This document shows, one piece after another, positions 23,626 to 35,392 of a stretch of DNA of 35,392 nucleotides (position 1 is the first letter of the stretch; each line of letters starts with the position of its first letter). Where the stretch lies: contig WFSU01000010.1 in assembly GCA_015485845.1 (NCBI GenBank), forward strand, positions 1 through 35,392, read 5' to 3'. The notes beneath the pieces are model-generated. The model had not been told where the DNA came from, made no database searches, and saw nothing but the letters and a program-made list of their open reading frames with translations. The position numbers and the translations under genes are program-made. Source of the DNA: Nitratifractor sp. (lineage in GTDB: Bacteria; Campylobacterota; Campylobacteria; Campylobacterales; Sulfurovaceae).

Positions 23626-24906
23626 ATGATGTCCAAAATTATTGACCATTTCAAGGTACTGATAAAGATACCGCACTGCTCACAGGATGCTGAGGCGTTG
23701 TTTCTCTACCTGAGAGATTTTGCCTCCGAGCATGGCTACACGGTACAGATCGATGACGCAGGAAACATTCTTGCATCGAAGGGTAAGCCCGAAATATGCC
23801 TTCAGGCGCATTACGACATGGTCTGTATGGGCAGTGCACCTCAGATTGAGACGGAAGAGCGTGAGGGGTGGCTTCATGCCGTGGATGCTTCTCTGGGCGC
23901 GGACAACGGTATCGGGATTGCGATGATGATGGTGTTGATGGAGGAAGGGGTAGCGGCGGAATTTTTATTTACCGCTGATGAAGAGGTCGGATTGATCGGT
24001 GCTAATGCGCTGGATTTCAAACTCCTATCCTCCCGCATGCTCAATCTCGACAGCGAAGATGAAGCCGAAGTCTACATCGGCTGTGCCGGAGGGGCGGATA
24101 TCATCGGAGAAGTGTTTGATGAGCAGGTTCCCGGACATGGAGCATGCTATGAAGTGTCTGTGCGGGGGCTTCCCGGTGGGCATTCGGGTGTCGATATCGA
24201 CAAAAATATCCCCTCGGCGATTACACTTTTGGCAGAATACTTGCACAAAGAGGGGGTGGATCAGCTCTCTACCATTATCGCCGGTGAACGGCGCAACGCC
24301 ATTCCGTCCAATGCCGTAGCGATCGTCCGAAGCGATACTCCTCTGACTGGACGAGGGGTCGTGACGGTACGGCCACTAAAGGAATCCCCTGATGTTTATC
24401 GTGCCGGCAAAGAGATACTCGACTACCTCTACCGCTTCAAGCAAGGGGTACGGTCAATGAATATGCAGCTTGGTATTCCCCAGACCAGCGTCAATCTGGC
24501 CATGGTCAATGACACGTATTCTCCGCGAGGTCTCACGATTGAGATCAGTGCCCGTGCGATGAGTATGGAGGATTTGGAGATACTGATTTCCGAGACCGTG
24601 GCCGAGATGGAGATGTCAGGGTTTGCTGTACGCGTCGAAGATAAATACCCAGCTTGGAAACCGGAAGAGAATTCTTTTACCCGGGAGGTTGCCGTAGCGA
24701 TGGATGCGGAATTTGGTACCGCGAAAACTGTAGCGATCCACGCCGGCCTCGAGTGTGGCGTACTGAGCCAGAAATACCCGCAGATTCAGTTTGCCTCCAT
24801 CGGCCCAACGATCCGTTACCCCCATTCGACACGGGAGTGCGTCGATCTTGCATCAGTGGAGCAGACGTTTCGGGTGGTGGAAAAAATAGTGAGGAATCAG
24901 GAGTGA
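23626..24906 (+). CDS. PepD-like M20C dipeptidase (aminoacyl-histidine dipeptidase family)
   Basis: 426 aa. The start may be the second ATG at 23629. Motifs LQAHYDMV, GADNGIG, TADEEVGLIGA and LNLDSEDEAEVYIGCAGG. Confidence 0.75.
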   Translation: MMSKIIDHFKVLIKIPHCSQDAEALFLYLRDFASEHGYTVQIDDAGNILASKGKPEICLQAHYDMVCMGSAPQIETEEREGWLHAVDASLGADNGIGIAMMMVLMEEGVAAEFLFTADEEVGLIGANALDFKLLSSRMLNLDSEDEAEVYIGCAGGADIIGEVFDEQVPGHGACYEVSVRGLPGGHSGVDIDKNIPSAITLLAEYLHKEGVDQLSTIIAGERRNAIPSNAVAIVRSDTPLTGRGVVTVRPLKESPDVYRAGKEILDYLYRFKQGVRSMNMQLGIPQTSVNLAMVNDTYSPRGLTIEISARAMSMEDLEILISETVAEMEMSGFAVRVEDKYPAWKPEENSFTREVAVAMDAEFGTAKTVAIHAGLECGVLSQKYPQIQFASIGPTIRYPHSTRECVDLASVEQTFRVVEKIVRNQE

Positions 24907-24916
24907 GGAGTGAGGA
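24889..24916. repeat. heptamer array GTGAGGA ATCAGGA GTGAGGA GTGAGGA
   Basis: Four units. The PepD-like gene stop (24904-24906) is the TGA of unit 3. Followed by ATTTTG, as at 20073. Confidence 0.85.
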
Positions 24917-24942
24917 ATTTTGAGAGCAAGAAAATTTTATTA

Positions 24943-25035
24943 GGGGCTTGGACTTCAATCCAACAAACGCGATAGCGTATCTCATTAGGTATGGATAGCA
25001 TTTTGGTTATTCTGTGGGACTGAAGTCCCAGCCCC
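24943..25035. repeat. REP-like inverted doublet (variant arm 24943-24964, consensus arm 25014-25035)
   Basis: GGGGCTTGGACTTCAATCCAAC, then a 49-nt spacer, then GTGGGACTGAAGTCCCAGCCCC. Lies between the convergent pepD-like and nth genes. Confidence 0.8.
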
Positions 25036-25040
25036 TCATT

Positions 25041-25691
25041 TTATACTTTAAACGTCTCCGACGTCCGGCAATACGGCGCCATATAGCACCCCTCACATTC
25101 CGGCTTGAGGGCTTTGCAGTGGTAGCGGCCGAAGAGCACCATGGCTTGATGGAGGCGGTGGAGGTCGGTTTTGAATTTTTTCGTGAGTTGTTCTTCGCAT
25201 TTGACGGCGGTGGAGGCATTGCACAGGCCGAGGCGGTGGGCGACGCGGTAGACGTGGGTGTCGACGGCCATGAGGTTGGCCTGGGTGTATTCGATCATGA
25301 CGACGTTGGCGGTTTTCTGGCCGACGCCGGCGAGGGTGACGAGCTCTTTTTGATTGAGAGGGATATTTCCGCCGTAGTTTTCGACGACCGATTGCGCCAT
25401 TTTGATGAGGTTTTTGGCCTTGTTGTTGAAAAAGGAGCACGTCTTGATGTACGATTTGATATCCTCGAGATCGGCATGGGCGAGGGAAATGGGGTCGGGG
25501 TAGGCTTCGAAGAGTGCCGGAGTGATGAGATTGACCCGTTTGTCGGTGCATTGGGCGGAGAGCATGACGGAGATAAGGAGTTCGTAGAGATTGCGGTAGT
25601 TGAGCTCTGTGATTGAGTCGGGGTAGTGTTCGAGAAACTGATCCCGAATCGCTTCGATCTCTTCCTTGGTTGCCTGCTTGATTCGTGCCAT
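25041..25691 (-). CDS. nth: endonuclease III
   Basis: 216 aa with helix-hairpin-helix LAGVGQKTANVV, the catalytic region, and the C-terminal 4Fe-4S cluster CKALKPECEGCYMAPYC. Confidence 0.95.
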   Translation of the reverse strand: MARIKQATKEEIEAIRDQFLEHYPDSITELNYRNLYELLISVMLSAQCTDKRVNLITPALFEAYPDPISLAHADLEDIKSYIKTCSFFNNKAKNLIKMAQSVVENYGGNIPLNQKELVTLAGVGQKTANVVMIEYTQANLMAVDTHVYRVAHRLGLCNASTAVKCEEQLTKKFKTDLHRLHQAMVLFGRYHCKALKPECEGCYMAPYCRTSETFKV

Positions 25692-25759
25692 GTTCGCCTC
25701 CTGTCTGTTTGTGCAATCATACTGCGTGCGCCGTTAATGTTTGATTTAAGCAACTCCGA

Positions 25760-25765
25760 TATAAT
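25760..25765 (+). promoter_or_regulatory. candidate -10 box
   Basis: cgaTATAATtt lies about 37 nt upstream of ATG 25802. Confidence 0.35.
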
Positions 25766-25801
25766 TTCCTCATTAATTTTTTGAACACAAAGGACAGAAG
25801 A

Positions 25802-26644
25802 ATGAAAAGAATTTTGAGCACAGCCGCTACTGTGATTGCATTAGGGGCGGTTTCCCTCTCGGCTGCCGATACCTTGGCCACCGTCAATGGAACACCGGTT
25901 ACAACCGAAGATGCCAACATTTACGTAGCCCAGACACAGCAGGGTGCCCGTTTTGATGCGTTGACAAAAGATCAGAAGAAAATGATCGTTGACCGTTTGA
26001 TCGAGCGGGTGCTCTTCATCGATCAAGCCAAAAAAGAAGGGATCGAAAAAGATCCGGAGTATCAGCGTCTGCTTGCTCGAGATAAGGAAGAGCTGATGGT
26101 GCGTACCTGGATCACGAAGCAGTTTGAAAATACCGTGATAAGCGATAGCGAAGCCAAGGCGTATTTTGATAAACATTCGGATGAATTCAAAGTCCCGGCC
26201 CAGGTACATGCCCGTCATATCCTGCTCAAAGATGAGAAAGGTGCCAAGGATGTTCTAGCACAATTGAAAGGGCTGAAAGGCGATGCACTCAAGAAGCGCT
26301 TCATCGAACTGGCCAAAGCCAAATCAACCGGCCCCACCGGCCCCAAGGGAGGCGATCTTGGATTTTTCGCTCCCGGTCAGATGGTCAAACCGTTTAACGA
26401 TGCAGTGTTTGCGATGAAAAAAGGGGAAGTCTCGGCTAAACCGGTCAAGACACAGTTTGGTTACCATGTGATCTATGCCGAAGATATTAAACCGGCCAAA
26501 ACGATTCCTTACAAAGAGGCCAAAGATCGTATTATTGGAATGCTTAAGCAAAAAACATTCAGTGCAAAAATGGCTAAATTGGCGGCCAGCCTGAAATCGA
26601 AGTCGAAGGTCGTGATATCCGGTGAAACAAACGCGACAAAATAG
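25802..26644 (+). CDS. periplasmic parvulin-type peptidyl-prolyl isomerase/chaperone (SurA/PEB4/HP0175-like)
   Basis: 280 aa from ATG 25802, with an AAGGA RBS. Signal peptide. Parvulin motifs ARHILL, GGDLGFF and QFGYHVI. Confidence 0.8.
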   Translation: MKRILSTAATVIALGAVSLSAADTLATVNGTPVTTEDANIYVAQTQQGARFDALTKDQKKMIVDRLIERVLFIDQAKKEGIEKDPEYQRLLARDKEELMVRTWITKQFENTVISDSEAKAYFDKHSDEFKVPAQVHARHILLKDEKGAKDVLAQLKGLKGDALKKRFIELAKAKSTGPTGPKGGDLGFFAPGQMVKPFNDAVFAMKKGEVSAKPVKTQFGYHVIYAEDIKPAKTIPYKEAKDRIIGMLKQKTFSAKMAKLAASLKSKSKVVISGETNATK

Positions 26645-26707
26645 TGGATTTAACCCCACTATTCGACCCGGTTTGATACAATGTCAAAAAGGTCTTGAAG
26701 GAGTAGA

Positions 26708-27409
26708 ATGAAGAAGATTATCGCTGCGGGCATGGTAGGGATGGTTCTGGTAAGCAGTGGTGTGTCGGCGAAAGTGATCGGTCGCATCAATGGATACCCG
26801 GTTACTGAAAACGAAGCCAACAAATTTTTGAAGGTTGTCACCAAAGGGAAGCTGAAGTTTCATCAATTGCGTCCGAAAGATAAAAAAGATGTGATCAAAC
26901 GAATTGCCGTAGATTCTCTGTTGGTCGGGATGGCCAAAAAACAGATACCATTGATCGAACGTAATCAGGTTATCGTCAACTACTGGCTTTCCAAAAAGAT
27001 CAAAGGGATGTCGGTTTCGGACAAAGAGGTTCGCAAGGCATATGACTCCAATAAAAAACTTTTCAAAGATACGCACGGGAAGATTCTGCCGTTTGAAAAA
27101 GTGAAAGAGATGATCGCGGTGTCGATTAAGCAGAAGAAATATGTCGCCCAACTGATGGACAAAGCGCGGATTACCATGGGTAAGAAAGTGATCAAATCTC
27201 CTAAAAAAGGGACATCCTCCGGTAAAAAAGAGAAGAGTACTGTCCCCTCGAACGGAAAAACAAAGATTTATACAGTCAAAAGCGGCAACACGCTTTCGGG
27301 TATCGCTCACAAGTACCATATCACGACAGCAGAACTAAGAGCCCTCAACGGTATGACAGATAAAGACACACTTAAGATCGGTCAGAAACTCAAAGTCCCC
27401 GCCAAATAA
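26708..27409 (+). CDS. SurA-N-like chaperone domain protein with C-terminal LysM and no PPIase domain
   Basis: 233 aa with a signal peptide. The N-terminus ING.PVTENEANKFLK parallels VNGTPVTTEDANIYV of the upstream gene. C-terminal YTVKSGNTLSGIAHKYHITTAELRALNGM...LKIGQKLKVP is a LysM domain. Confidence 0.55.
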   Translation: MKKIIAAGMVGMVLVSSGVSAKVIGRINGYPVTENEANKFLKVVTKGKLKFHQLRPKDKKDVIKRIAVDSLLVGMAKKQIPLIERNQVIVNYWLSKKIKGMSVSDKEVRKAYDSNKKLFKDTHGKILPFEKVKEMIAVSIKQKKYVAQLMDKARITMGKKVIKSPKKGTSSGKKEKSTVPSNGKTKIYTVKSGNTLSGIAHKYHITTAELRALNGMTDKDTLKIGQKLKVPAK

Positions 27410-27422
27410 TGAAGGAATCCAT

Positions 27423-28496
27423 GTGAACCCAAACGTATCCTCTTTTATCAATCCCGGTGTGGTCAGCGGGGAAAAACTTCAGCAACTCTTTGCGTTTGCC
27501 AAAGCGGAGGGGTTTGCTATGCCTGCGGTCAATGTCGTCGGAAGCAACTCGATCAACAGCGTCATGGAAGCCGCAAAAAAGGTTAACAGCCCCGTTATTA
27601 TCCAGTTCAGCAACGGTGGAGCTGTCTTTAACGGTGGCCAGGGGATTGATACTCAGACGGCTGCTGTGATGGGCGCGGTGAGCGGCGCACGCCATGTCCA
27701 TTTGCTGGCCGAGAGCTATGGCATTCCTGTTGTCCTTCACACCGACCATGCTGCCCGCAAGCTTCTACCGTGGATTGATGCGCTGATAGATGCGGGGGAG
27801 GATCATTACGAGGCATACGGTAAACCGCTCTTTTCTTCGCATATGATTGACCTGAGTGAAGAGCCGATCGAAGAAAATATCGCGACATGCAAAATGTATC
27901 TTGAGCGGATGAGTAAGATCGGTATGACGCTTGAAATCGAGCTTGGAGTGACCGGTGGTGAAGAGGACGGAGTGGACAACAGCCACATCGACAATGCCTT
28001 GCTCTATACTCAGCCCGAAGAGGTAGCCTATGCCTACGAAGAGTTGCGCAAAGTCAGTGACAACTTCACTATTGCCGCTTCGTTTGGCAATGTTCACGGC
28101 GTCTACAAGCCCGGAAATGTCGTCCTGACACCGAAAATCCTCGACAATTCTCAGCAATACATCGAAGAGAAATTCGGCACCGATCCCAAACCGGTCAATT
28201 TTGTCTTTCACGGGGGTTCAGGATCAACCATAGAGGAGATCCGCGAAGCGATCGAGTATGGGGTGATCAAGATGAACATCGATACCGATACCCAATGGGC
28301 ATTCTGGGACGGCGTGCGTGGATACGTCGCTCAGTACCACGCCTATCTCGAAGGGCAAATCGGCAACCCCGAAGGGGACGACAAGCCCAACAAAAAATAC
28401 TATGATCCCCGAAAATGGCTCCGAGCCGGGGAACTCTCGATGGTCGCACGCCTCGAAAAAGCGTTTAGCGATCTCAACTGTATGAATCGATTTTAA
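27423..28496 (+). CDS. fba: class II fructose-bisphosphate aldolase
   Basis: 357 aa with a GTG start 6 nt after the AAGGAA RBS. Motifs PAVNVVGSNS, LHTDHA, GGEEDGVDN and FVFHGGSGS. Confidence 0.95.
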   Translation: MNPNVSSFINPGVVSGEKLQQLFAFAKAEGFAMPAVNVVGSNSINSVMEAAKKVNSPVIIQFSNGGAVFNGGQGIDTQTAAVMGAVSGARHVHLLAESYGIPVVLHTDHAARKLLPWIDALIDAGEDHYEAYGKPLFSSHMIDLSEEPIEENIATCKMYLERMSKIGMTLEIELGVTGGEEDGVDNSHIDNALLYTQPEEVAYAYEELRKVSDNFTIAASFGNVHGVYKPGNVVLTPKILDNSQQYIEEKFGTDPKPVNFVFHGGSGSTIEEIREAIEYGVIKMNIDTDTQWAFWDGVRGYVAQYHAYLEGQIGNPEGDDKPNKKYYDPRKWLRAGELSMVARLEKAFSDLNCMNRF

Positions 28497-28542
28497 GTTT
28501 TCAGGGGAGGAGCATGAGCTCTATAATCTAAGCAGAAGATAT

Positions 28543-28609
28543 GGGGCTGGGACTTTAGTCCCACTAAAAGCGTAAGCGTAACTTCTTGTGGGACTAAAGT
28601 CCCAGCCCC
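28543..28609. repeat. perfect REP-like inverted doublet (22-bp arms, 23-nt spacer); likely bidirectional terminator
   Basis: GGGGCTGGGACTTTAGTCCCAC at 28543-28564 is the exact reverse complement of GTGGGACTAAAGTCCCAGCCCC at 28588-28609. Lies between convergent fba and nrdB. Confidence 0.85.
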
Positions 28610-28617
28610 TTTGTGAA

Positions 28618-29631
28618 TTAAAAATCGTCGAGGTCGATGCTTGACTTGGCGTAATTCGATACATTACTCTCAAAGAAATTACTTCGTACCTCATTCATGT
28701 TCAAATGTTTCGTGACCAACTGTTGCAGATACGTCTCGGGGGTCTCTTCGAAGATGGGGTCGAGGCCGATAGTTTTGAGGCGACTGTTAGCGTAGTTGTG
28801 GACGGTACGTTCCATCAATTCGGGGGTGGTTCCCATGATGGGGAAACTGTCGAGAAGGTAGTTGCCATACTCCAGCTCGATATCCACAGCATCCCGGATC
28901 ATGTTGTAGCACTCGTCGATGGTGGCCGCGCTGATTTTGTTTTCTTTGACGATGGTTTTAAAGATGTTTCCAAAGAGCGGCATGTGGGTATTGAGTTCAT
29001 CGCGGGCGATGAATTTGATCATATCGCGGGCTCCGGGGACTTTGTCTCCAAGCAGGTAAATGTAGCTGAATCCCAGCAGAAAGTAAATCCCTTCGAGGTT
29101 GACACTCGCCATAGCGCTGAGGAGCATTTTCTCAGCTGAGCCTCCGTCGATGTACCTGGCAAACTGTTCAGCGATACGCTGGTTTTTCCGGTTGAGAGCC
29201 TGATCGTATTTGTAGAGGTTGAAGACCTCTTCGGAGTTGCCGGCGGCATCGAGGAGGACGGCGTAGGATTTGGAGTGATTGACCTCCTGCATGATTTGGA
29301 GGCTCAGAACCGATTTGACCAGACGGTTGTTGGCGAGGCGACGGAAGTCACTCAGGTACTCTTCCTGAGCACTGTCGTTGAAGCTCAGCTGTGCAAAAGT
29401 GAGTTTGTAGATGGATTGTTCATTGTCACTGAGGGCTGAGAAGTTTTTGCTCTCGGCAGACGTGTTGACTTCGGATGGGAACCAGGTGTTGGCATTCATC
29501 AAATCGTAGATATTGCTGTCCCAACGGTATTTGGAGCGGTTGAAATCGACGAAACCGGTCGGAGAGCCTCCGTAGATCTTTTCATCGAGAATGTCTTCTC
29601 CGTTCGGGTTATAAAAATGTGTTGCATCCAT
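28618..29631 (-). CDS. nrdB: class Ia ribonucleotide reductase beta subunit
   Basis: 337 aa with ferritin-like di-iron motifs (EVNHSKSY, EGIYF..., ARDELNH) and an acidic C-terminal tail ending DLDDF. Confidence 0.9.
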   Translation of the reverse strand: MDATHFYNPNGEDILDEKIYGGSPTGFVDFNRSKYRWDSNIYDLMNANTWFPSEVNTSAESKNFSALSDNEQSIYKLTFAQLSFNDSAQEEYLSDFRRLANNRLVKSVLSLQIMQEVNHSKSYAVLLDAAGNSEEVFNLYKYDQALNRKNQRIAEQFARYIDGGSAEKMLLSAMASVNLEGIYFLLGFSYIYLLGDKVPGARDMIKFIARDELNTHMPLFGNIFKTIVKENKISAATIDECYNMIRDAVDIELEYGNYLLDSFPIMGTTPELMERTVHNYANSRLKTIGLDPIFEETPETYLQQLVTKHLNMNEVRSNFFESNVSNYAKSSIDLDDF

Positions 29632-29718
29632 GGTGTTTCTCCTGAAATAAGTGCATCATTTTACCCGATTCTGATGTAAGTCAAGCTAAAATTTCCTGTA
29701 ATAAAAAGGTAACATTTG

Positions 29719-30624
29719 ATGCAAAAAACTTCCCTTGCTTTGCCCAGCCCTGTCGAGCAGATTGTTGTTGATGATTCCCCTTTTTATCTCAAACACGATG
29801 AGCGGATTCACCCCGACTTTTCGGGGAATAAAGCCCGGAAATTTCATTATTTTCTCACCCATGACTTCCCGGAAATTCGCCGGGTTGTCTCCTATGGGTC
29901 GCCGCAGTCCAATGCGATGTACTCCCTTTCGGTGCTGGCACGGATGCGGGGGTGGGTGTTTGATTATTATGTCGATCACGTCGCCGGATACCTGCGGGAA
30001 AACCCACACGGCAACTACGCCCGTGCCCTGGCCAACGGCATGCAGATCCACACGACACCCCGCCCCCAGATCCTCCTGCCCGACACGCTCCTGATCCACG
30101 AAGGGGGACGACAGGTCGAAGCGGAGTACGGTGTTGCGATCTTGGCGCAAGAGATAGCAGATTGGCAACACGAGCAGGGGATCGAGCATCTCGATATCTT
30201 CTTCCCTTCCGGCACAGGTACCACCGCCCTGTATCTCCAAAAAACCCTATCAACCATCCACCATCCACCATCCACCGTATATACCACTCCGTGCGTAGGC
30301 GATGCCGAATACCTCCGCAAACAGTTTACTATCCTCGAGCCTGACCCACACCTGTGGCCGATGATCCTCGATTTGCCACACAAATACCACTTTGGCAAAC
30401 TCTACCGGGAGTTTTACGAAATTTGGATAGAATTACACCAACAAACCGGCGTGACATTTGATCTCCTCTACGACCCAAAAGGGTGGCTGACGCTCCTGAA
30501 GCATCGCGACCAAATGGGTCAGCATCTTCTCTACCTCCATCAGGGGGGATTGCAGGGAAATGAGAGCATGCTCAAGCGTTATGAGCGTAGATTTTCGCAC
30601 GCCTACAAGGATAAAACGAAATGA
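29719..30624 (+). CDS. PLP-dependent enzyme of the ACC deaminase/D-cysteine desulfhydrase family
   Basis: 301 aa from ATG 29719. SGNKARKF resembles the PLP-lysine motif of this family. Stop overlaps the hisD start. Confidence 0.6.
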   Translation: MQKTSLALPSPVEQIVVDDSPFYLKHDERIHPDFSGNKARKFHYFLTHDFPEIRRVVSYGSPQSNAMYSLSVLARMRGWVFDYYVDHVAGYLRENPHGNYARALANGMQIHTTPRPQILLPDTLLIHEGGRQVEAEYGVAILAQEIADWQHEQGIEHLDIFFPSGTGTTALYLQKTLSTIHHPPSTVYTTPCVGDAEYLRKQFTILEPDPHLWPMILDLPHKYHFGKLYREFYEIWIELHQQTGVTFDLLYDPKGWLTLLKHRDQMGQHLLYLHQGGLQGNESMLKRYERRFSHAYKDKTK

Positions 30625-32261
30625 AAACATTTAGCACGACCGATGCAGACTTCCAAGTCAACTTTGATGAACTTCTTGCCCGGGGAGCGATGGATATAGA
30701 AGGGGTCAGCACGATCGTAAACGATCTGCTCAAAGAGATACGCACCGGCGGCAACGCAGCACTGCGAGAACAAATCGCCCGGTTTGACCGCTGGAGTCCC
30801 CAGAGTGATGACGAGCTTAAAGTCCGCTCGGAGGAGATGAAGGCTGCCTACGAAGCGATCGATCCCAAGCTCCGGGATGCCCTCCAGCTGGCGTACGACC
30901 GTATCCGCGACTACCACGAGAAACTCATGCCCAGGACATGGATGGAGACGGATGCCACCGGCAGCGTACTGGGGCAAAAAGTCACCCCCGTCGATCGTGC
31001 CGGCCTCTACATCCCCGGGGGCAAAGCCGCCTATCCCAGCAGTCTCCTGATGAATGTCATCCCCGCCCAGGTGGCCGGAGTCGGGGAGATCGTCGTCTGC
31101 ACCCCCGCACCGGACAATGAGCTCAACGAACTTCTCCTGGCTGCCTGTCACCTTTGCGGGGTTGAGAATGTCTTCCGTGTCGGCGGAGCCTCGGCGATCG
31201 GGGCGATGGCATACGGCACCGAGACGATCCCCAAAGTAGATGTCATCACAGGGCCGGGCAATATTTTCGTCGCCACCGCCAAAAAACTGGTCTACGGCGA
31301 GGTCAACATCGACATGATCGCCGGCCCGAGTGAGATCGGCGTATTGGCGGATCGTTCCGCTCCGGCTGATCTGCTGGCGATGGATCTCCTTTCTCAGGCA
31401 GAGCACGACGAGATGGCCAGTTCGATCCTCATCACCGACGATGCCGATCTGGCGGCCTCAGTCGCCCAAGAGATCGAAGGCTTCCTCGGTACCCTCTCGC
31501 GAGAGACCATCGCCCGCACATCAATCGCGGAACGCGGAGCGATCATCATCGCCCGCGACATGGACGAAGCGGTCGATCTGATGAACCAGATTGCCCCTGA
31601 GCACCTCGAGGTGGTCACTGAAGATCCCATGAGTCTGCTCCCCTCCATCCGGCATGCTGGAGCAATCTTCCTCGGCCGCAATACCCCAGAGCCCATCGGC
31701 GACTACATCGCCGGCCCCAACCACACACTGCCTACCGGCGGTACAGCACGGTTTTATTCGCCTCTGAGCGTAGAACATTTCCTCAAAAAGTCCTCCATCA
31801 TCTCTATGAGTGAAGCGGGGATCAACGCCATCGGCGAAGAGTGCGCCATGATCGCCCACACCGAGGGGCTTACCGCCCACGAAGCCTCGGTGCGGATGCG
31901 CCTGAAAAAAGAGCACGAAGGTTCCGAGCACGACAAGCGCTTCAAAGGTCTTGATGGTGACGATGATCTCCTCTCTAAGCTTGGCATCGACCTCAATGGT
32001 GAAAAGATCAACATCGACCTGGGGAAAACCAAAGGCTTTTTTGATGCGGTTGGTGAGAAGCTTGCTTCCAAAGCCGAAAAACTTCAGAACGACATCGCAA
32101 GCGGCTCAGTCGATCTGGGCGAAAACGTCGGGGTCAAAGTGGACAAAGAGCAGATCAATATTGACCTTGGAAAAACCAGAAGCTTCATTGATGATCTGGG
32201 AAAAAAGATTGCGGGGTTTGTCGATCAGATTGATGATGTGGTTAAGGACATCAAGAAGTAG
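30621..32261 (+). CDS. hisD: histidinol dehydrogenase with about 114-aa C-terminal repeat-containing extension
   Basis: 546 aa. The HisD core runs to about residue 432 (...LTAHEASVRMRLKK), with QAEHDE and the GDY..GPNH..PT motifs. In-frame tail with two repeats EKINIDLGKTKGFFDAVGEKLA / EQINIDLGKTRSFIDDLGKKIA (32001-32066, 32148-32213). Confidence 0.9.
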   Translation: MKTFSTTDADFQVNFDELLARGAMDIEGVSTIVNDLLKEIRTGGNAALREQIARFDRWSPQSDDELKVRSEEMKAAYEAIDPKLRDALQLAYDRIRDYHEKLMPRTWMETDATGSVLGQKVTPVDRAGLYIPGGKAAYPSSLLMNVIPAQVAGVGEIVVCTPAPDNELNELLLAACHLCGVENVFRVGGASAIGAMAYGTETIPKVDVITGPGNIFVATAKKLVYGEVNIDMIAGPSEIGVLADRSAPADLLAMDLLSQAEHDEMASSILITDDADLAASVAQEIEGFLGTLSRETIARTSIAERGAIIIARDMDEAVDLMNQIAPEHLEVVTEDPMSLLPSIRHAGAIFLGRNTPEPIGDYIAGPNHTLPTGGTARFYSPLSVEHFLKKSSIISMSEAGINAIGEECAMIAHTEGLTAHEASVRMRLKKEHEGSEHDKRFKGLDGDDDLLSKLGIDLNGEKINIDLGKTKGFFDAVGEKLASKAEKLQNDIASGSVDLGENVGVKVDKEQINIDLGKTRSFIDDLGKKIAGFVDQIDDVVKDIKK

Positions 32262-32272
32262 CTTGCCCCCTC

Positions 32273-32300
32273 CTCGTTCCCACCGTCCCGGTGGGAATGC
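32273..32300. repeat. second hairpin-repeat class, copy in reverse orientation (CTCGTTCCCAC-N7-GTGGGAATGC)
   Basis: Local hairpin TTCCCAC/GTGGGAA. It is the inverted counterpart of 32365-32393. Confidence 0.75.
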
Positions 32301-32364
32301 ATATTTGAGATATTTATGTTGATCATGCCCTGATAGGCTTAGCGAGTTGTTTGGGCTCCGATAG

Positions 32365-32393
32365 GCATTCCCACGCAGGAGCGTGGGAACGAG
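32365..32393. repeat. second hairpin-repeat class, forward copy (GCATTCCCACGC-AGGA-GCGTGGGAACGAG)
   Basis: 9-bp stem TTCCCACGC/GCGTGGGAA. The flanks GCATTCCCAC and GTGGGAACGAG are shared with the inverted copy at 32273-32300. Confidence 0.75.
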
Positions 32394-32409
32394 CGGGAAG
32401 TAGTTTGCA

Positions 32410-32471
32410 GGGGCTTGGGCTTCAGCCCAACCAAACGCAAAGCGTATCTGTGGGACTGAAGTCCCAGCCCC
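32410..32471. repeat. REP-like inverted doublet (variant arm 32410-32431, consensus arm 32450-32471)
   Basis: GGGGCTTGGGCTTCAGCCCAAC, then an 18-nt spacer, then GTGGGACTGAAGTCCCAGCCCC. The variant arm keeps a perfect 6-bp hairpin through two compensated pair changes. Confidence 0.8.
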
Positions 32472-32530
32472 ATGCAATACTAAAAATATGACAATCTGAC
32501 ATATTTTTCTTCCCCTCCTCCAATTTTCGC

Positions 32531-32536
32531 TACAAT
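32531..32536 (+). promoter_or_regulatory. candidate -10 box (TACAAT) for the DUF2130 gene
   Basis: cgCTACAATat lies about 30 nt upstream of ATG 32566. Confidence 0.35.
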
Positions 32537-32565
32537 ATCCTCAAGACAAACATTAGGATATGTTC

Positions 32566-33846
32566 ATGCCAGCCACCAATACCATCGCGTGCCCAAAATG
32601 CGGCACTCAAATTGACATTGACGCGATCTTTTATCATCAGGTAGAGGAGAAATTCAAACACCAACAAATTGAGGAGCGGCGCAAGCTTCAGGCTGAGATC
32701 GACGGAGCGCGTGCTCAGTACAAAAACCACCTCGATAGCCTCAAGAAAAAAGAAGAAGCCCTTGCCACCGAAAAAGAGCACTTTGATGAGGCGTTGCGCA
32801 AAGCGACCCGGGAGCAGCTGCGCAAAGATCGGGAGCAGATGGCGCAGGAGCTCAAGCAACAGCTTGCCGAGGAGCAGAGTGCTGCGATGGCGGCCCTCCA
32901 GAAAGAGCTTGAGGAGAAATCGGGCAAACTTCAGGAGCTTCACGCGGCTACTGCTCGTATCGCTCGACTTGAGCGCGAAAAGGCCGAAGCATCTGCCCGC
33001 GCCAAAGCCGAAGCGGAGCTGGAGCTCAACAAACGGCTGGCTGAAGAGAAGCAGAAGCTTCAAAAAGCGATCGATGACGAAACTGCCCTCAAACTCAAAG
33101 AGAAAGACGAGCAGCTCGAGCAGCTCAAGCGCAGTCTTGAAGATGCTAAACGCAAAGCCGATCAGGGGAGCATGCAAATACAGGGTGAAGCGTTGGAGCT
33201 GGCGATCGAGAGCTGGCTGGCATCGCAGTTTCCGTTTGATACCATCGAAGAGGTCAAAAAAGGAGCCTTCGGTGCTGACTGCATTCAGACGGTCCATACC
33301 CGTGAGCTCCCCAACTGCGGTATTATCTGCTATGAGTCCAAGAACACCAAAGCATGGTCGGATAGCTGGATCACCAAGCTCAAGCAGGACATGCTCAAGG
33401 TAGGCGCCGACATCGGGGTACTTGTCACGTCGGTCTATCCGAGCGGCATGGAGCGGATGGGGTTTGTCGATGGGATCTGGGTGTGCAGTCTCGACGAGTT
33501 CAAAGGCTCAGCCGCCTTGCTGCGTGATGGGCTTATCCGGGTGCACAAAAGCATCCAGCGCGAAGAGAACCGCGGAGACAAGATGGCGCTGCTCTACTCG
33601 TATCTGACCGGCAACGAATTTGGGATGCAGATGCGCGCGATCGTGGATGGCTTCATGGCGATGCAGGCCGAGCTGGACAAAGAACGCCGCTCCCTCATGG
33701 CATCCTGGAAACGCCGTCAGAAGATCATCGACGGCGTACTGACCAACACCACCGAAATGTACGGAGCCTTCCAGGGGATCGCCGGAGCCGGAGCGTTGAC
33801 CCATATCGAGGCGCTGGAGCTGCCGGAGAGTTTTGAGGAGGAATAG
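32566..33846 (+). CDS. DUF2130-family protein: N-terminal CxxC, long coiled coil, C-terminal PD-(D/E)xK-like nuclease domain
   Basis: 426 aa from the second ATG, which has better spacing to the AGGA RBS; the ORF track starts at 32560. IACPKCG, then about 200 aa of E/K/Q/A-rich heptad-like sequence. C-terminus GEALELAIE...GADCIQTV...IICYESKNTKAWSDSWITKLKQD...MYG..QGIAG matches my recollection of DUF2130. Confidence 0.8.
   Translation: MPATNTIACPKCGTQIDIDAIFYHQVEEKFKHQQIEERRKLQAEIDGARAQYKNHLDSLKKKEEALATEKEHFDEALRKATREQLRKDREQMAQELKQQLAEEQSAAMAALQKELEEKSGKLQELHAATARIARLEREKAEASARAKAEAELELNKRLAEEKQKLQKAIDDETALKLKEKDEQLEQLKRSLEDAKRKADQGSMQIQGEALELAIESWLASQFPFDTIEEVKKGAFGADCIQTVHTRELPNCGIICYESKNTKAWSDSWITKLKQDMLKVGADIGVLVTSVYPSGMERMGFVDGIWVCSLDEFKGSAALLRDGLIRVHKSIQREENRGDKMALLYSYLTGNEFGMQMRAIVDGFMAMQAELDKERRSLMASWKRRQKIIDGVLTNTTEMYGAFQGIAGAGALTHIEALELPESFEEE
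33797..33832. repeat. 36-bp direct repeat, copy 1 (inside the 3' end of the DUF2130 gene)
   Basis: TGACCCATATCGAGGCGCTGGAGCTGCCGGAGAGTT is identical to 35299-35334. The match extends to 44 bp with 2 mismatches (33789 / 35291). Confidence 0.95.
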
Positions 33847-33850
33847 TTAG

Positions 33851-34137
33851 ATGATTACACGTGATGCTATGCGAAGATATGCAATTTTATTTACAGCTCC
33901 TGCGTTGATGGGTATTTTTTTTAATCTGATAATCGGTTTAGATGTTTATAAACCAATTATTGCTTTGATAGTTCCTTCTATTACACTTTATGCTCTTTCA
34001 TTTTTGTTTGAAAAAGAAAAAAATGTTTGGTATTGCGACAGGTGCATATTGAGCTGACTCGTGATCAAATAAAGTTTGGTGTTTGTCCTGCATGTGGTGA
34101 TAGGGTTAAAGGCTTTCGAGGTGAGCATCGGCTTTGA
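33851..34137 (+). pseudogene. two-TM membrane protein with C-terminal zinc ribbon, split by a frameshift
   Basis: ORF 33851-34057 ends ...WYCDRCILS*. The -1 frame, open from 34045, continues HIELTRDQIKFGVCPACGDRVKGFRGEHRL* to TGA 34135-34137. Joining the two frames completes a CxxC-N15-CxxC ribbon. Confidence 0.6.
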
Positions 34138-34209
34138 TGAATTTGGATGAATACAGAGATCGATATTCTCGCTATAGCTTAATCCTTGGATACATGGCAT
34201 GAGATGTTA

Positions 34210-34231
34210 GTTGGGCTGAATTCCAAACCCC
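34210..34231 (+). repeat. degenerate REP-like motif (GTTGGGCTGAATTCCAAACCCC)
   Basis: Matches the 22-nt consensus at 16 of 22 positions. The hairpin is only partly retained. Confidence 0.45.
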
Positions 34232-34273
34232 TCTTAATTGCAGAAAGTTATGCCACTTCTTCATTGATTGGTA

Positions 34274-34302
34274 TTTGACATCATATTCTATAAACGATAT
34301 AA
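34274..34302 (+). promoter_or_regulatory. consensus sigma70-type promoter TTGACA-17 nt-TATAAT
   Basis: TTGACA at 34274-34279 and TATAAT at 34297-34302 with a spacer of exactly 17 nt, 31 nt upstream of ATG 34334. Confidence 0.65.
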
Positions 34303-34333
34303 TACCCACAATATGTAGTAAAAAGGCACTATC

Positions 34334-34672
34334 ATGCAGACAATGGCGATACGGGATTTGAAGAATAATCCCTCCCATATGACCGAGTATCTCGAGCACA
34401 ATCAGAGTGTCTTCATCACCAAACACAGCAAACCCATCGGGATTACCCTCCCACTGAATGATGATGTGTTCTCCGTGGGGTTGCGCCAATCTGCGGCGAT
34501 CGATCAGTATCGGCATGGACTCATTTCACTGGGGAAAATGGCGGAATTTCTCTCCATCACCAAAACCGAAGCGATCCGGCTCGTCGATCGTCTCGGTATC
34601 GACTGGCTCGACTACACTCCCGAGGAGCTCGAAGAGCAGGCCATCGCAGCCGGAGCCTACCGCCGCGCATGA
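34334..34672 (+). CDS. two-domain antitoxin: Phd/YefM-like N-terminus fused to a UPF0175-like C-terminus
   Basis: 112 aa. N-terminus AIRDLKNNPSHMTEYLEHNQSVFITKHSKPIGITLPL. C-terminus GLISLGKMAEFLSITKTEAIRLVDRLGI. Overlaps the toxin start by 4 nt. Confidence 0.7.
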   Translation: MQTMAIRDLKNNPSHMTEYLEHNQSVFITKHSKPIGITLPLNDDVFSVGLRQSAAIDQYRHGLISLGKMAEFLSITKTEAIRLVDRLGIDWLDYTPEELEEQAIAAGAYRRA

Positions 34673-35145
34673 TCCTCTCGGATGCCACGGCGATCATTGC
34701 CCTGATCAACATCGATGAACTTTCGCTCCTCAAACAGTTTGCCCGTACGATTCTCATCCCCGAAGAAGTCTATCGTGAGATTGCCCACTATTCACATGCC
34801 CGTGCCTGCGTCGACCGTGAAATTGCCGAGGGGTTTATAGAGATCACGACGTACAACGATCCGACTCTTTTCAGGGATTTCTGCTATCTCCTTGATGCCG
34901 GAGAATCTGCAGCTATTGCCATCGCACTCGAGCGTAACCTTCCCCTCATCATCGACGAAAAGAAAGGTCGCGCTTTTGCCCGAAGACAGGGTGTAGAGAT
35001 CATCGGTCTGATCGGCATCCTCCGCTACCTTTACATCGAAGGCACTCTTTCTCAAAAACGCACTGAGGAGATCATCGACAAGCTGAATGCATCGGATTTT
35101 CGGATCAGTGAGAAGTTGTTGGGGATGATTTTGGGAGATGTTTAG
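34669..35145 (+). CDS. DUF3368-family PIN-like toxin
   Basis: 158 aa with the pattern LSDATAIIALINI...LIPEEVYREI...LDAGESAAIAIALE...LIIDEKKGRAFARRQGVEIIGLIGIL typical of DUF3368. Confidence 0.75.
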   Translation: MILSDATAIIALINIDELSLLKQFARTILIPEEVYREIAHYSHARACVDREIAEGFIEITTYNDPTLFRDFCYLLDAGESAAIAIALERNLPLIIDEKKGRAFARRQGVEIIGLIGILRYLYIEGTLSQKRTEEIIDKLNASDFRISEKLLGMILGDV

Positions 35146-35197
35146 TGTTTATTAAGTCACCTTCTGAAGGAATTAAAAGCATTGAAAGGATTGCTCC

Positions 35198-35389
35198 ATG
35201 GCAACTGAACCCGTGAGCCCGACACGGCATCCGATCACCCGCACTGTTTCGCTCGATGAAAACGAGATAGAATTTACGGCCATGCGGGAGCGGAGCTCTG
35301 ACCCATATCGAGGCGCTGGAGCTGCCGGAGAGTTACTTTATATTTATTTAATTATTATTGTATATAATAACCATATACAAAAGGTATAA
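35198..35389 (+). CDS. doubtful ORF; possibly a truncated gene 5' end fused to the second copy of the 36-bp repeat
   Basis: AAAGGA RBS and ATG 35198. After about 33 codons it reads through the repeat in a different frame from DUF2130 and then into very AT-rich sequence. Confidence 0.2.
   Translation: MATEPVSPTRHPITRTVSLDENEIEFTAMRERSSDPYRGAGAAGELLYIYLIIIVYNNHIQKV
35299..35334. repeat. 36-bp direct repeat, copy 2
   Basis: Identical to 33797-33832, at an offset of 1502 bp. Confidence 0.95.
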
Positions 35390-35392
35390 AGA

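What the first reader, a model, noticed from the sequence alone, without database searches (positions are those of the whole stretch)
33797..35334. 1.5-kb accessory module inserted at the 3' end of the DUF2130 gene, flanked by a perfect 36-bp direct repeat
Seen: TGACCCATATCGAGGCGCTGGAGCTGCCGGAGAGTT occurs at 33797-33832, encoding the C-terminal LTHIEALELPES of DUF2130. It occurs again at 35299-35334, and the match is 44 bp with 2 mismatches. The 1502-bp interval is more AT-rich by eye. It holds a frameshifted membrane zinc-ribbon gene, a degenerate REP-like motif, a consensus promoter, and a Phd/UPF0175-DUF3368 TA operon. After copy 2 the DUF2130 frame would read ..PESYFIFI* into AT-rich DNA. 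Inference: this is the att-like signature of a site-specific or microhomology-mediated insertion that duplicates the target gene's 3' end. No integrase lies inside the interval, and the window ends 58 bp after copy 2, so the element may continue beyond the window.
Basis: partly seen in the sequence, partly recalled or inferred. Interest (0 to 1): 0.65.

Follow-up and report, generated by a model that had tools for sequence, protein, structure and literature searches.

The report
Recombination scar between stacked toxin-antitoxin cassettes
The 36-bp repeat is real, but it does not mark a mobile element: it is a leftover piece of a second strain's DUF2130 gene end, sitting where two alternative versions of a variable toxin-antitoxin region were joined in tandem, and that join cut off a copy of the ribosome-rescue gene arfB.

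Summary
The repeat is confirmed. It is 36 nt perfect, or 44 nt with 2 mismatches, at 33789-33832 and 35291-35334, with none expected by chance. The reading as a 1.5-kb att-flanked insertion does not hold.

- **The interval is native.** The gene order (frameshifted membrane/Zn-ribbon gene, UPF0175/DUF3368 TA, start of arfB) also lies downstream of DUF2130 in close relatives that have no copy 2 (L058, L059).
- **The left edge is a broken gene.** Window 35198-35288 is the first 30 codons of arfB, cut just before its GGQ motif and fused to copy 2.
- **Copy 2 is allelic.** Its two mismatches are both synonymous in the DUF2130 frame, so it comes from another DUF2130 allele.
- **The structure continues past the window.** L061 and L062 carry the same joint. 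L065 and L066, from the window's own MAG lineage and assembly, overlap its last 45 nt. All continue as BrnT-BrnA, a DUF3368-toxin 3' remnant, then a full arfB.

The locus is therefore a heterologous tandem duplication of the segment from DUF2130(-57) to arfB(+93), with one illegitimate joint at 35288-35291. No integrase was found. Similar DUF2130 3' remnants beside other cassettes occur in L058, L039, L009 and L048, which marks this as a recombination hot spot. This is ordinary biology and of modest interest.

The parts
32560..33846 (+). DUF2130 gene (426-428 aa). Its tail ...ALELPESFEEE* matches the family's usual acidic C-terminus.
   Evidence: Pfam PF09903, E=7e-73. C-termini of 50 orthologues compared.
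33789..33832 (+). Repeat copy 1, inside DUF2130 (codons GALTHIEALELPES). All haplotypes diverge immediately after ...CCGGAGAGTT.
33851..34137 (+). Pseudogene of a 103-aa membrane/Zn-ribbon protein (orf68 plus zn36). A 1-nt deletion relative to the intact L058 orthologue (L058:11679-11990) breaks the frame.
34207..34232 (.). REP-like motif, 85% complementary to 32409-34234-type hairpin sequence at 32409-32434. Related motifs sit at the same spot in L025 and L058.
   Evidence: The fold itself is not significant.
34275..34303 (+). Consensus sigma-70-type promoter of the TA operon (TTGACA, 17 nt, TATAAT). Conserved in L025, L058, L059 and L060.
34334..34672 (+). UPF0175-family antitoxin (112 aa). 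Its stop overlaps the toxin start (ATGA).
   Evidence: Pfam PF03683, 43.8 bits. UPF0175 is reported only next to COG2405/DUF3368 PIN toxins (PMC5499597).
34669..35145 (+). DUF3368 (COG2405) PIN-like toxin (158 aa).
   Evidence: Pfam PF11848, 27.9 bits. PADLOC PDC-S70, E=3e-31.
35198..35288 (+). arfB 5' fragment: the first 30 codons (MATEPVSPTRHPITRTVSLDENEIEFTAMR), cut just before the GGQ motif.
   Evidence: 28/30 identical to L058 ArfB, which passes the NCBIfam ArfB equivalog at 177 bits against a cut-off of 100. Contigs from the same samples continue ...AMR|AQGSGGQKVN.
35288..35291 (.). Novel illegitimate joint: arfB(+93) fused to DUF2130(-57). The same joint, with 1 SNP, is present in L061 and L062.
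   Evidence: A Logan contig spans it at depth 283.
35291..35334 (+). Repeat copy 2: a 44-nt remnant of the 3' end of a second DUF2130 allele. Its 2 differences from copy 1 (GCG>GCT, TTG>CTG) are both synonymous.
   Evidence: The codon phase was read directly from the sequence.
35335..35392 (+). Alternative DUF2130 tail (YFIFI*) followed by the BrnTA promoter and RBS. The BrnT ATG starts at window end +1. In strain X1/L002 an IS200/IS605-like element is inserted at 35348|35349.
   Evidence: L061/L062. L065/L066 overlap the last 45 nt. The same promoter lies upstream of BrnT in the unrelated locus L063.

Best explanation
The locus is a heterologous tandem duplication of the chromosomal segment that runs from 57 nt before the DUF2130 stop to codon 31 of arfB.

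- **Unit 1** (window 33789-35290) is one haplotype: DUF2130 end with tail FEEE*, the orf103 pseudogene, the UPF0175/DUF3368 TA operon, and arfB codons 1-30.
- **Unit 2** starts at copy 2 (35291) and is a different haplotype: DUF2130 end with tail YFIFI*, then BrnT and BrnA, then a 92-nt 3' remnant of the DUF3368 toxin, then a full arfB. Most of unit 2 lies beyond the window.

The only novel sequence is the joint arfB(+93)|DUF2130(-57) at 35288-35291.

Inferred mechanism: DNA from a strain with one haplotype recombined into a strain with the other. One end used ordinary homology, in DUF2130 or in arfB and downstream. The other end joined illegitimately in a G+C-rich stretch (GCGGG in arfB, GCCGGAGCCGGAGC in DUF2130). 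This could have been homology-facilitated illegitimate recombination, or the equivalent single crossover of a circularised fragment.

The 36/44-nt repeat is therefore a hitch-hiking remnant of a former neighbour gene. It is not a recombinase attachment site.

Shown: the structure, the joint, the allelic nature of the duplicated parts, and that the TA-arfB order is native. Inferred: which haplotype was donor and which recipient, and the exact recombination pathway.
For: 1. L058 and L059 are in the same 90% DUF2130 cluster and share the upstream synteny. Both have DUF2130-(variable)-UPF0175-DUF3368 followed by arfB (L058) or another gene (L059), with no copy 2.
2. Window 35198-35288 is the arfB 5' end.
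3. L061 and L062 match window 34275-35392 at 93% straight through the joint. They continue with BrnT, BrnA, a toxin remnant, full arfB and a histidine kinase.
4. In L061 all three boundary pieces are duplicated with allelic divergence: DUF2130 3' 50 nt at 80%, toxin 3' 92 nt at 90%, and arfB 5' 116 nt at 91%.
5. L065 (same MAG as L002) and L066 (same ENA assembly as L001/L004) contain the window's last 45 nt exactly and continue as BrnT-BrnA-toxin'-arfB(146 aa). In the window joined to L065, 35059-35291 recurs 896 nt downstream at 79%.
6. In run X1 the 43-nt arfB node and the 36-nt repeat node have depths of 498 and 525, against about 220 for the flanking contigs, which is the level two copies per genome would give. 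The loose ends read exactly as the second arfB copy in L065.
7. Both mismatches in the 44-mer are synonymous.
8. The repeat has no unusual secondary structure (z = -0.3 and +0.3).
9. In E. coli conjugation experiments, one-sided-homology substrates most often produced duplications of part of the homologous locus, by single crossover of circular molecules (PMC3240628).
Against: - The parental 'haplotype 2' (an intact DUF2130 followed directly by YFIFI* and BrnTA) was not recovered. The only hint is one low-depth (10x), adapter-contaminated contig in X1.
- The linkage of the window to L065/L066 rests on a 45-nt exact overlap plus the collinear L061/L062, not on a single contig from the window's own genome.
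- The microhomology at the joint is imperfect: there is a 1-nt discrepancy in the GGAGC(C)GGAGC run.
- Natural transformation has not been shown for this organism.
- At least three to five independent lineages carry DUF2130 3' remnants beside cassettes. That clustering could also indicate some site preference that has not been identified.
Confidence: 0.78

Rival explanations
1. Site-specific integration. The 36-44-mer would be an att core at the 3' end of DUF2130, and either the 1.5-kb interval or the BrnTA segment would be an integrase-less cassette (CIME-like) mobilised in trans by a recombinase encoded elsewhere.
For: - Direct repeats of a gene's 3' end with synonymous differences are typical of elements that integrate into gene ends.
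- DUF2130 3' remnants recur beside different cargo in L058, L039, L009 and L048.
- All haplotypes diverge at the same point, after CCGGAGAGTT.
Against: - The interval is native synteny in L058 and L059.
- The left edge of copy 2 cuts arfB at codon 31, and a second pair of repeats (toxin 3' / arfB 5', about 240 nt) flanks the BrnTA segment. This fits a segmental duplication, not an att pair.
- The remnants differ in length and left boundary: 19-30, 34, 44 and 281 nt.
- No integrase lies in or next to the structure, and none recurs among 150 downstream ORFs from 37 loci.
- The common divergence point is explained simply by the non-conserved acidic tail.
Confidence: 0.08
2. Metagenome assembly artefact. 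The contig end would be a chimera joining reads of different strains through the shared 36-mer.
For: - The window is a MAG contig from mixed Sulfurovum populations.
- Many alleles of this region coexist in the same samples, and contigs break repeatedly here.
Against: - The same arfB'|copy 2 joint is present in independent assemblies from different samples: the window, L001/L004, L002, L061 (GCA_027056255.1) and L062 (ERZ23495730).
- Logan contigs also span it, at depth 283 in X1 and 31 in X2.
- The joint lies outside the 36-mer, in unique sequence.
Confidence: 0.04
3. In-situ event within one genome. This could be replication slippage, template switching or filler DNA that copied 44 nt of the nearby DUF2130 end into a deletion junction in arfB. 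Or it could be a homogeneous tandem duplication whose second copy was later remodelled.
For: The source sequence lies only 1.5 kb away on the same strand. Short templated insertions at deletion joints are known.
Against: - Copy 2 differs from copy 1 only by two synonymous changes, and it continues into a different DUF2130 tail.
- The toxin and arfB duplicates are 10-20% diverged, which indicates a foreign allele rather than a local copy.
- In L061 the resident DUF2130 end is only 80% identical to the remnant.
Confidence: 0.07

Closest known systems
Homology-facilitated illegitimate recombination, or single-crossover integration of circularised fragments. Described in naturally competent bacteria and, for E. 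coli conjugation, in PMC3240628.
   Same: One end uses homology and the other joins illegitimately. The products can carry a partial duplication of the homologous locus flanking the foreign DNA (109-950 bp in PMC3240628). No dedicated recombinase is involved.
   Different: Here it is inferred only from natural sequence. The donor, the recipient and the uptake route are unknown, and one duplicated piece is only 44 nt long.
Tandem segmental duplication with a novel end-to-start joint
   Same: The end of the segment (arfB +93) is joined to its start (DUF2130 -57). Both segment ends are present twice, and the shared k-mer nodes have 2x depth.
   Different: The two units are different haplotypes with different cargo (orf103 plus UPF0175/DUF3368 versus BrnTA plus a toxin remnant) and are 10-20% diverged. 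They are not identical copies.
Integrative elements that target the 3' end of a gene and carry a replacement end (e14/phage 21 in icd, from my own knowledge), and integrase-less CIMEs flanked by att sites
   Same: A direct repeat of the gene's 3' end with synonymous differences, cargo in between, and no integrase inside.
   Different: The cargo is native synteny. One boundary is a truncated arfB. A second, unrelated repeat pair exists, remnant lengths vary between lineages, and no recombinase was found.
Chromosomal toxin-antitoxin islets or cassette arrays (for example TA cassettes in superintegrons, from my own knowledge)
   Same: Several small type II TA operons (UPF0175/DUF3368, BrnTA, HigBA) are swapped and stacked at one hypervariable spot between conserved genes.
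   Different: There are no attC-like sites or integron integrase. The boundaries are remnants of the neighbouring genes.

Membership tests
att-flanked integrative element / CIME | The segment between the repeats is absent from orthologous loci (an empty site exists). | tested here: not met
   L058 and L059 carry orf103 and/or the UPF0175-DUF3368 TA (and arfB in L058) at the same place without copy 2. L025 and L060 have the TA directly after DUF2130.
att-flanked integrative element / CIME | An integrase or recombinase within or adjacent to the repeats. | tested here: not met
   None in the interval or in the continuation in L061, L062 and L065. No recurrent integrase among 150 ORFs downstream of DUF2130 in 37 loci (only the 25 most frequent families were listed, so a single occurrence is not excluded).
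att-flanked integrative element / CIME | The repeats coincide with the element's termini, and no host gene is broken except the target. | tested here: not met
   The left edge of copy 2 truncates arfB at codon 31.
att-flanked integrative element / CIME | Excision to a circle and restoration of a single att site. | not testable with these tools
   Only Logan contigs were available, not raw reads. No joined form was reported.
Heterologous tandem (segmental) duplication | A novel joint linking the distal end of the segment to its proximal end. | tested here: met
   arfB(+93)|DUF2130(-57) at 35288-35291. The same joint is in L061 and L062.
Heterologous tandem (segmental) duplication | Both ends of the segment are present twice in the same molecule. 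| tested here: met
   L061 has the DUF2130 3' end x2, the toxin 3' end x2 and the arfB 5' end x2. The window joined to L065 gives the same result. Within the window itself only the DUF2130 pair is visible.
Heterologous tandem (segmental) duplication | Doubled depth of the shared sequence in the source sample. | tested here: met
   In X1 the 43-nt arfB node has depth 498 and the 36-nt node 525, against 213-234 for unique flanks. Other strains in the sample may contribute.
Type II TA, UPF0175 antitoxin / DUF3368 (COG2405) PIN toxin | Both family domains above the curated cut-offs, antitoxin first, with overlapping genes. | tested here: met
   43.8 bits against 27.9, and 27.9 bits against 27.3. 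There is an ATGA overlap at 34669-34672. The pairing is described in PMC5499597.
Type II TA, UPF0175 antitoxin / DUF3368 (COG2405) PIN toxin | Toxicity that is neutralised by the antitoxin. | not testable with these tools
   Needs expression assays.
ArfB (alternative ribosome-rescue peptidyl-tRNA hydrolase) | A full-length protein with the GGQ motif that passes the NCBIfam equivalog. | tested here: not met
   The window copy stops after 30 codons, before GGQ. Full copies exist in L058 (177 bits against 100) and in L061, L065 and L066. The window's copy is a truncated duplicate.

The most novel reading that the evidence does not exclude
The end of DUF2130 may be a genuine hot spot where small TA, Fic or hydrolase cassettes are repeatedly stacked rather than exchanged. 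Each new arrival would bring its own DUF2130 3' end and displace the old one downstream. Toxin-antitoxin addiction would select for such stacking recombinants, because cells that simply replace a resident TA die. If so, integrase-less cassettes would spread between Sulfurovum strains by circle formation or one-sided homologous recombination, leaving a readable stratigraphy of gene-end remnants.
Probability: 0.15. Interest if true: 0.45.

Novelty: new member of a known kind. Interest (0 to 1): 0.25.

Why it matters
It corrects an attractive but wrong call: a mobile element with att sites. It also shows how short direct repeats of a gene end can arise from strain-to-strain recombination in a hypervariable toxin-antitoxin islet.

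For annotation:
- The arfB fragment and the 63-aa chimeric ORF at 35198-35389 should be marked as pseudogenic.
- The contig break at the window end is explained by the BrnTA cassette occurring in several contexts, together with an IS200-like insertion polymorphism.

For population genomics of vent Campylobacterota, it gives a compact, phaseable marker of recombination between haplotypes.

Tried and rejected
- **JGI metagenome contigs.** An exact or degenerate scan for the DUF2130-end 29-mer gave 0 hits. The organism is not in that collection, so no empty sites could be found there.
- **IMG/VR.** A scan for the AT-rich tail gave 0 hits, so there is no sign of a viral element.
- **Exact-protein look-ups.** The 428-aa DUF2130 start variant and the 63-aa chimeric ORF are not on record. 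BrnT cluster member P0147 led only to the unrelated SDR context.
- **Intact haplotype 2.** The search for DUF2130-YFIFI*-BrnTA found only a 10x adapter-containing contig hint. Its three mismatches could not be displayed.
- **Shared crossover position.** I considered that the window remnant (-57) and the L009 remnant (-56) share a left boundary. I rejected this because L009's remnant is a longer, decayed 3' end with its own acidic tail.
- **attC-like or hairpin structure in the repeat.** Rejected: fold z-scores are about 0.
- **DUF2130 in solved structures.** Only coiled-coil noise. NCBIfam gave no hit.
Full report
**Observation.** The 36-mer TGACCCATATCGAGGCGCTGGAGCTGCCGGAGAGTT occurs at 33797-33832 and 35299-35334 and nowhere else in the window. 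With up to 3 mismatches allowed, 100 shuffles gave no matches. The repeat extends to 44 nt with two mismatches, starting at 33789 and 35291 with a spacing of 1502 nt. Homology does not continue further to the left.

Copy 1 lies in the last codons of a DUF2130 gene (32560-33846; PF09903, E=7e-73).
- orf68 (33851-34057) and a 36-codon Zn-ribbon ORF (34027-34137) are the two halves of one 103-aa gene that is intact in a relative. The window has a 1-nt deletion.
- A 12/12 consensus promoter lies at 34275-34303.
- The UPF0175 antitoxin (34334-34672) and the DUF3368 PIN-like toxin (34669-35145) both pass their Pfam cut-offs. This pairing is described in PMC5499597, and it matches the PADLOC candidate defence system PDC-S70.

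Only the first third of the interval is AT-rich (33-39% GC). The TA genes have the GC content of the flanks.

Window 35198-35288 encodes MATEPVSPTRHPITRTVSLDENEIEFTAMR. This is 28/30 identical to the N-terminus of a 148-aa protein in a close relative (L058) that passes NCBI's ArfB equivalog model at 177 bits against a cut-off of 100. The window's copy stops just before the catalytic GGQ motif and is fused directly to copy 2. So the left boundary of copy 2 is a break inside arfB, not the end of an element.

The two mismatches between the copies (GCG TTG versus GCT CTG) are both synonymous in the DUF2130 frame (Ala, Leu). Copy 2 therefore descends from another functional DUF2130 allele rather than from a decaying local copy.

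**The interval is native.** The organism is a Sulfurovum-like member of the Campylobacterota from hydrothermal-vent metagenomes. Members of the same 90%-identity DUF2130 cluster sit on longer contigs with identical upstream synteny, ending in ribonucleotide reductase, orf301 and hisD:
- **L058:** DUF2130, BrnT'/BrnA, orf103, UPF0175, DUF3368, ArfB, MASE1 kinase, YkuD.
- **L059:** DUF2130, HigA/HigB, UPF0175, DUF3368, a 195-aa ORF, kinase, YkuD.
- **L060 and L025:** DUF2130, UPF0175, DUF3368, then a second TA.

The window's 33847-35290 is collinear with L058 11675-13001, and neither L058 nor L059 has a copy 2 after the toxin. What varies between strains is the short stretch between the DUF2130 stop and the TA promoter, and the last few codons of DUF2130. 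All haplotypes diverge immediately after CCGGAGAGTT, where the family has a poorly conserved acidic tail.

**What follows copy 2.** Two contigs from other samples match window 34275-35392 at 93% straight through the joint, copy 2 and the AT-rich tail, with two SNPs in the last 120 nt. They are L061 (GCA_027056255.1) and L062 (ERZ23495730). Both continue as follows:
- BrnT (107 aa), whose ATG starts at the base after the window's end;
- BrnA (86 aa);
- a 92-nt remnant of the 3' end of the DUF3368 toxin, with the intergenic region;
- a full-length arfB, then the kinase.

In L061 all three boundary pieces occur twice with allelic divergence: the DUF2130 3' end (50 nt, 80%), the toxin 3' end (92 nt, 90%) and the arfB 5' end (116 nt, 91%).

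The same continuation exists for the window's own genome. L065 is from the same MAG as L002, and L066 is from the same ENA assembly as L001/L004. Both contain the window's last 45 nt exactly and run on into BrnT, BrnA, toxin', arfB (146 aa) and a YkuD-like gene on the minus strand. In the window joined to L065, 35059-35291 recurs 896 nt downstream at 79% over 244 nt.

The Logan contigs of run X1 agree. The 43-nt stretch shared by the two arfB starts has depth 498, and the 36-mer has depth 525, against 213-234 for unique flanks. The sequences branching off at 35246 and 35288 read exactly as the second arfB copy in L065. The joint itself is spanned by a contig at depth 283 in X1 and depth 31 in X2, and it appears in at least five independent assemblies. 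It is therefore not an assembly chimera.

**Interpretation.** The locus is a tandem arrangement of two different versions of one chromosomal segment, which runs from 57 nt before the DUF2130 stop to codon 31 of arfB.
- Unit 1 (33789-35290): FEEE*, orf103', UPF0175/DUF3368, arfB'.
- Unit 2 (from 35291): YFIFI*, BrnTA, toxin', arfB.

The single novel joint is arfB(+93)|DUF2130(-57) at 35288-35291. It lies in G+C-rich sequence (GCGGG in arfB, GCCGGAGCCGGAGC in DUF2130) that offers 3-5 nt of imperfect microhomology.

The simplest origin is recombination between two strains with different haplotypes, using homology at one end and an illegitimate join at the other. That could be homology-facilitated illegitimate recombination, or the equivalent single crossover of a circularised fragment. 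In E. coli experiments with one-sided-homology substrates, duplications of part of the homologous locus were the commonest outcome (PMC3240628).

Which haplotype was donor and which recipient cannot be decided. The intact haplotype-2 parent (DUF2130-YFIFI*-BrnTA) was not recovered. The only trace is a 10x, adapter-bearing contig in X1 that links a DUF2130 body to the copy-2 tail.

**Against a site-specific att model.**
- No integrase lies in the interval or in the continuation.
- Among 150 ORFs within 4 kb downstream of DUF2130 in 37 loci there are 126 Pfam families, none present in more than 3 loci, and no recurrent recombinase.
- The repeat has no unusual secondary structure.
- The 36-mer is found only at DUF2130 ends or at this joint in all loci examined.

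**A wider pattern.** DUF2130 3' remnants lie beside other cargo in other lineages:
- **L058:** about 30 nt of a window-type FEEE* end lies after BrnT'A.
- **L039:** a 281-nt, 89%-identical and mostly synonymous copy lies after a RhuM/Fic gene and a hydrolase.
- **L009:** a decayed end with its own acidic tail lies after the hydrolase.
- **L048:** 34 nt lie after a Fic/HTH region.

The lengths and left boundaries differ, which fits illegitimate joints clustering near the point where inter-strain homology ends rather than a fixed crossover site. Stacking instead of replacement might be favoured by TA addiction. That idea is speculation.

**Verdict.** The feature is a recombination scar in a hypervariable TA islet. 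It is a new example of a known kind of event and of modest interest.

Noticed in passing
window 35348|35349; L002:9889-10007; L065:1-125; L066:1-52: A strain-polymorphic insertion of an IS200/IS605-like element lies between the DUF2130 remnant and the BrnT promoter. Its left end is GTCCCAAAAACGATAGTCC... with hairpin GCACTTTCAGTGC and an ORF starting MRRSGHTVSQMQAH. Its right end has an ORF ending ...DEYLEHHRTPSNRDTGTMILE* and hairpins GTGGACTTTCAGTCCAC and ATGGACTTTCAGTCCAT. It is present in X1, L002, L065 and L066, and absent in the window, L061, L062 and X2. Together with the multi-context BrnTA cassette, it explains why contigs break here.
   Followed up: partly
window 30621-32261: hisD is 546 aa long, with a C-terminal extension of about 115 aa containing INIDLGKT-type repeats. 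In more distant Sulfurovum genomes only this extension, as a stand-alone small gene, lies upstream of DUF2130, and hisD is elsewhere (tblastn hits to residues about 440-546 only). This suggests a gene fusion or another recombination joint.
   Followed up: partly
L063:6940-7553, L064, L067; L058:11293-11620; L061:3805-4414: The BrnT/BrnA cassette, with a conserved promoter (TTTAAT[TC]ATTATTGTATATAATAACCATATACAAAAGG), occurs in at least three unrelated contexts. These are after the DUF2130 remnant, fused 5'-truncated to the DUF2130 tail in L058, and between a HigB-like TA and an SDR gene in L063/L064/L067. It behaves as a small movable cassette.
   Followed up: partly
L039:11178-13352: A 281-nt copy of the DUF2130 3' end, 89% identical with few amino-acid changes, lies 1.76 kb downstream of the gene. 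A RhuM/Fic protein and an alpha/beta hydrolase lie in between. This is an independent case of the same kind of structure.
   Followed up: partly
window 32409-32470 and 34207-34232; L025:985-1010; L063:7600-7625: REP-like G+C-rich hairpins (GGGCTTCAGCCC, GGGACTGAAGTCCC) lie in intergenic regions. Their loops resemble the terminal hairpins of the IS200/IS605-like element (GGACTTTCAGTCC). This suggests a REP/RAYT-type relationship.
   Followed up: no
window 34334-35145: The UPF0175/DUF3368 pair matches PADLOC's candidate defence system PDC-S70 (toxin E=3e-31). In L025 and L060 a second, diverged copy of the same TA type follows in tandem with a similar promoter.
   Followed up: partly
window 35198-35389: A 63-codon chimeric ORF is retained behind the arfB ribosome-binding site. 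It consists of arfB codons 1-30, then an out-of-frame read through the DUF2130 remnant and the BrnT promoter. It is probably non-functional, but it could be translated.
   Followed up: no
L060:6101-8863 compared with window 23626-33846: In L060, DUF2130 directly follows the M20 peptidase gene. The roughly 7.5 kb of housekeeping genes that separate them in the window, L058 and L059 (HhH-GPD, rotamase, LysM, FBA aldolase, RNR small subunit, orf301, hisD) are missing there. So the upstream side of DUF2130 is also rearranged between close relatives.
   Followed up: no
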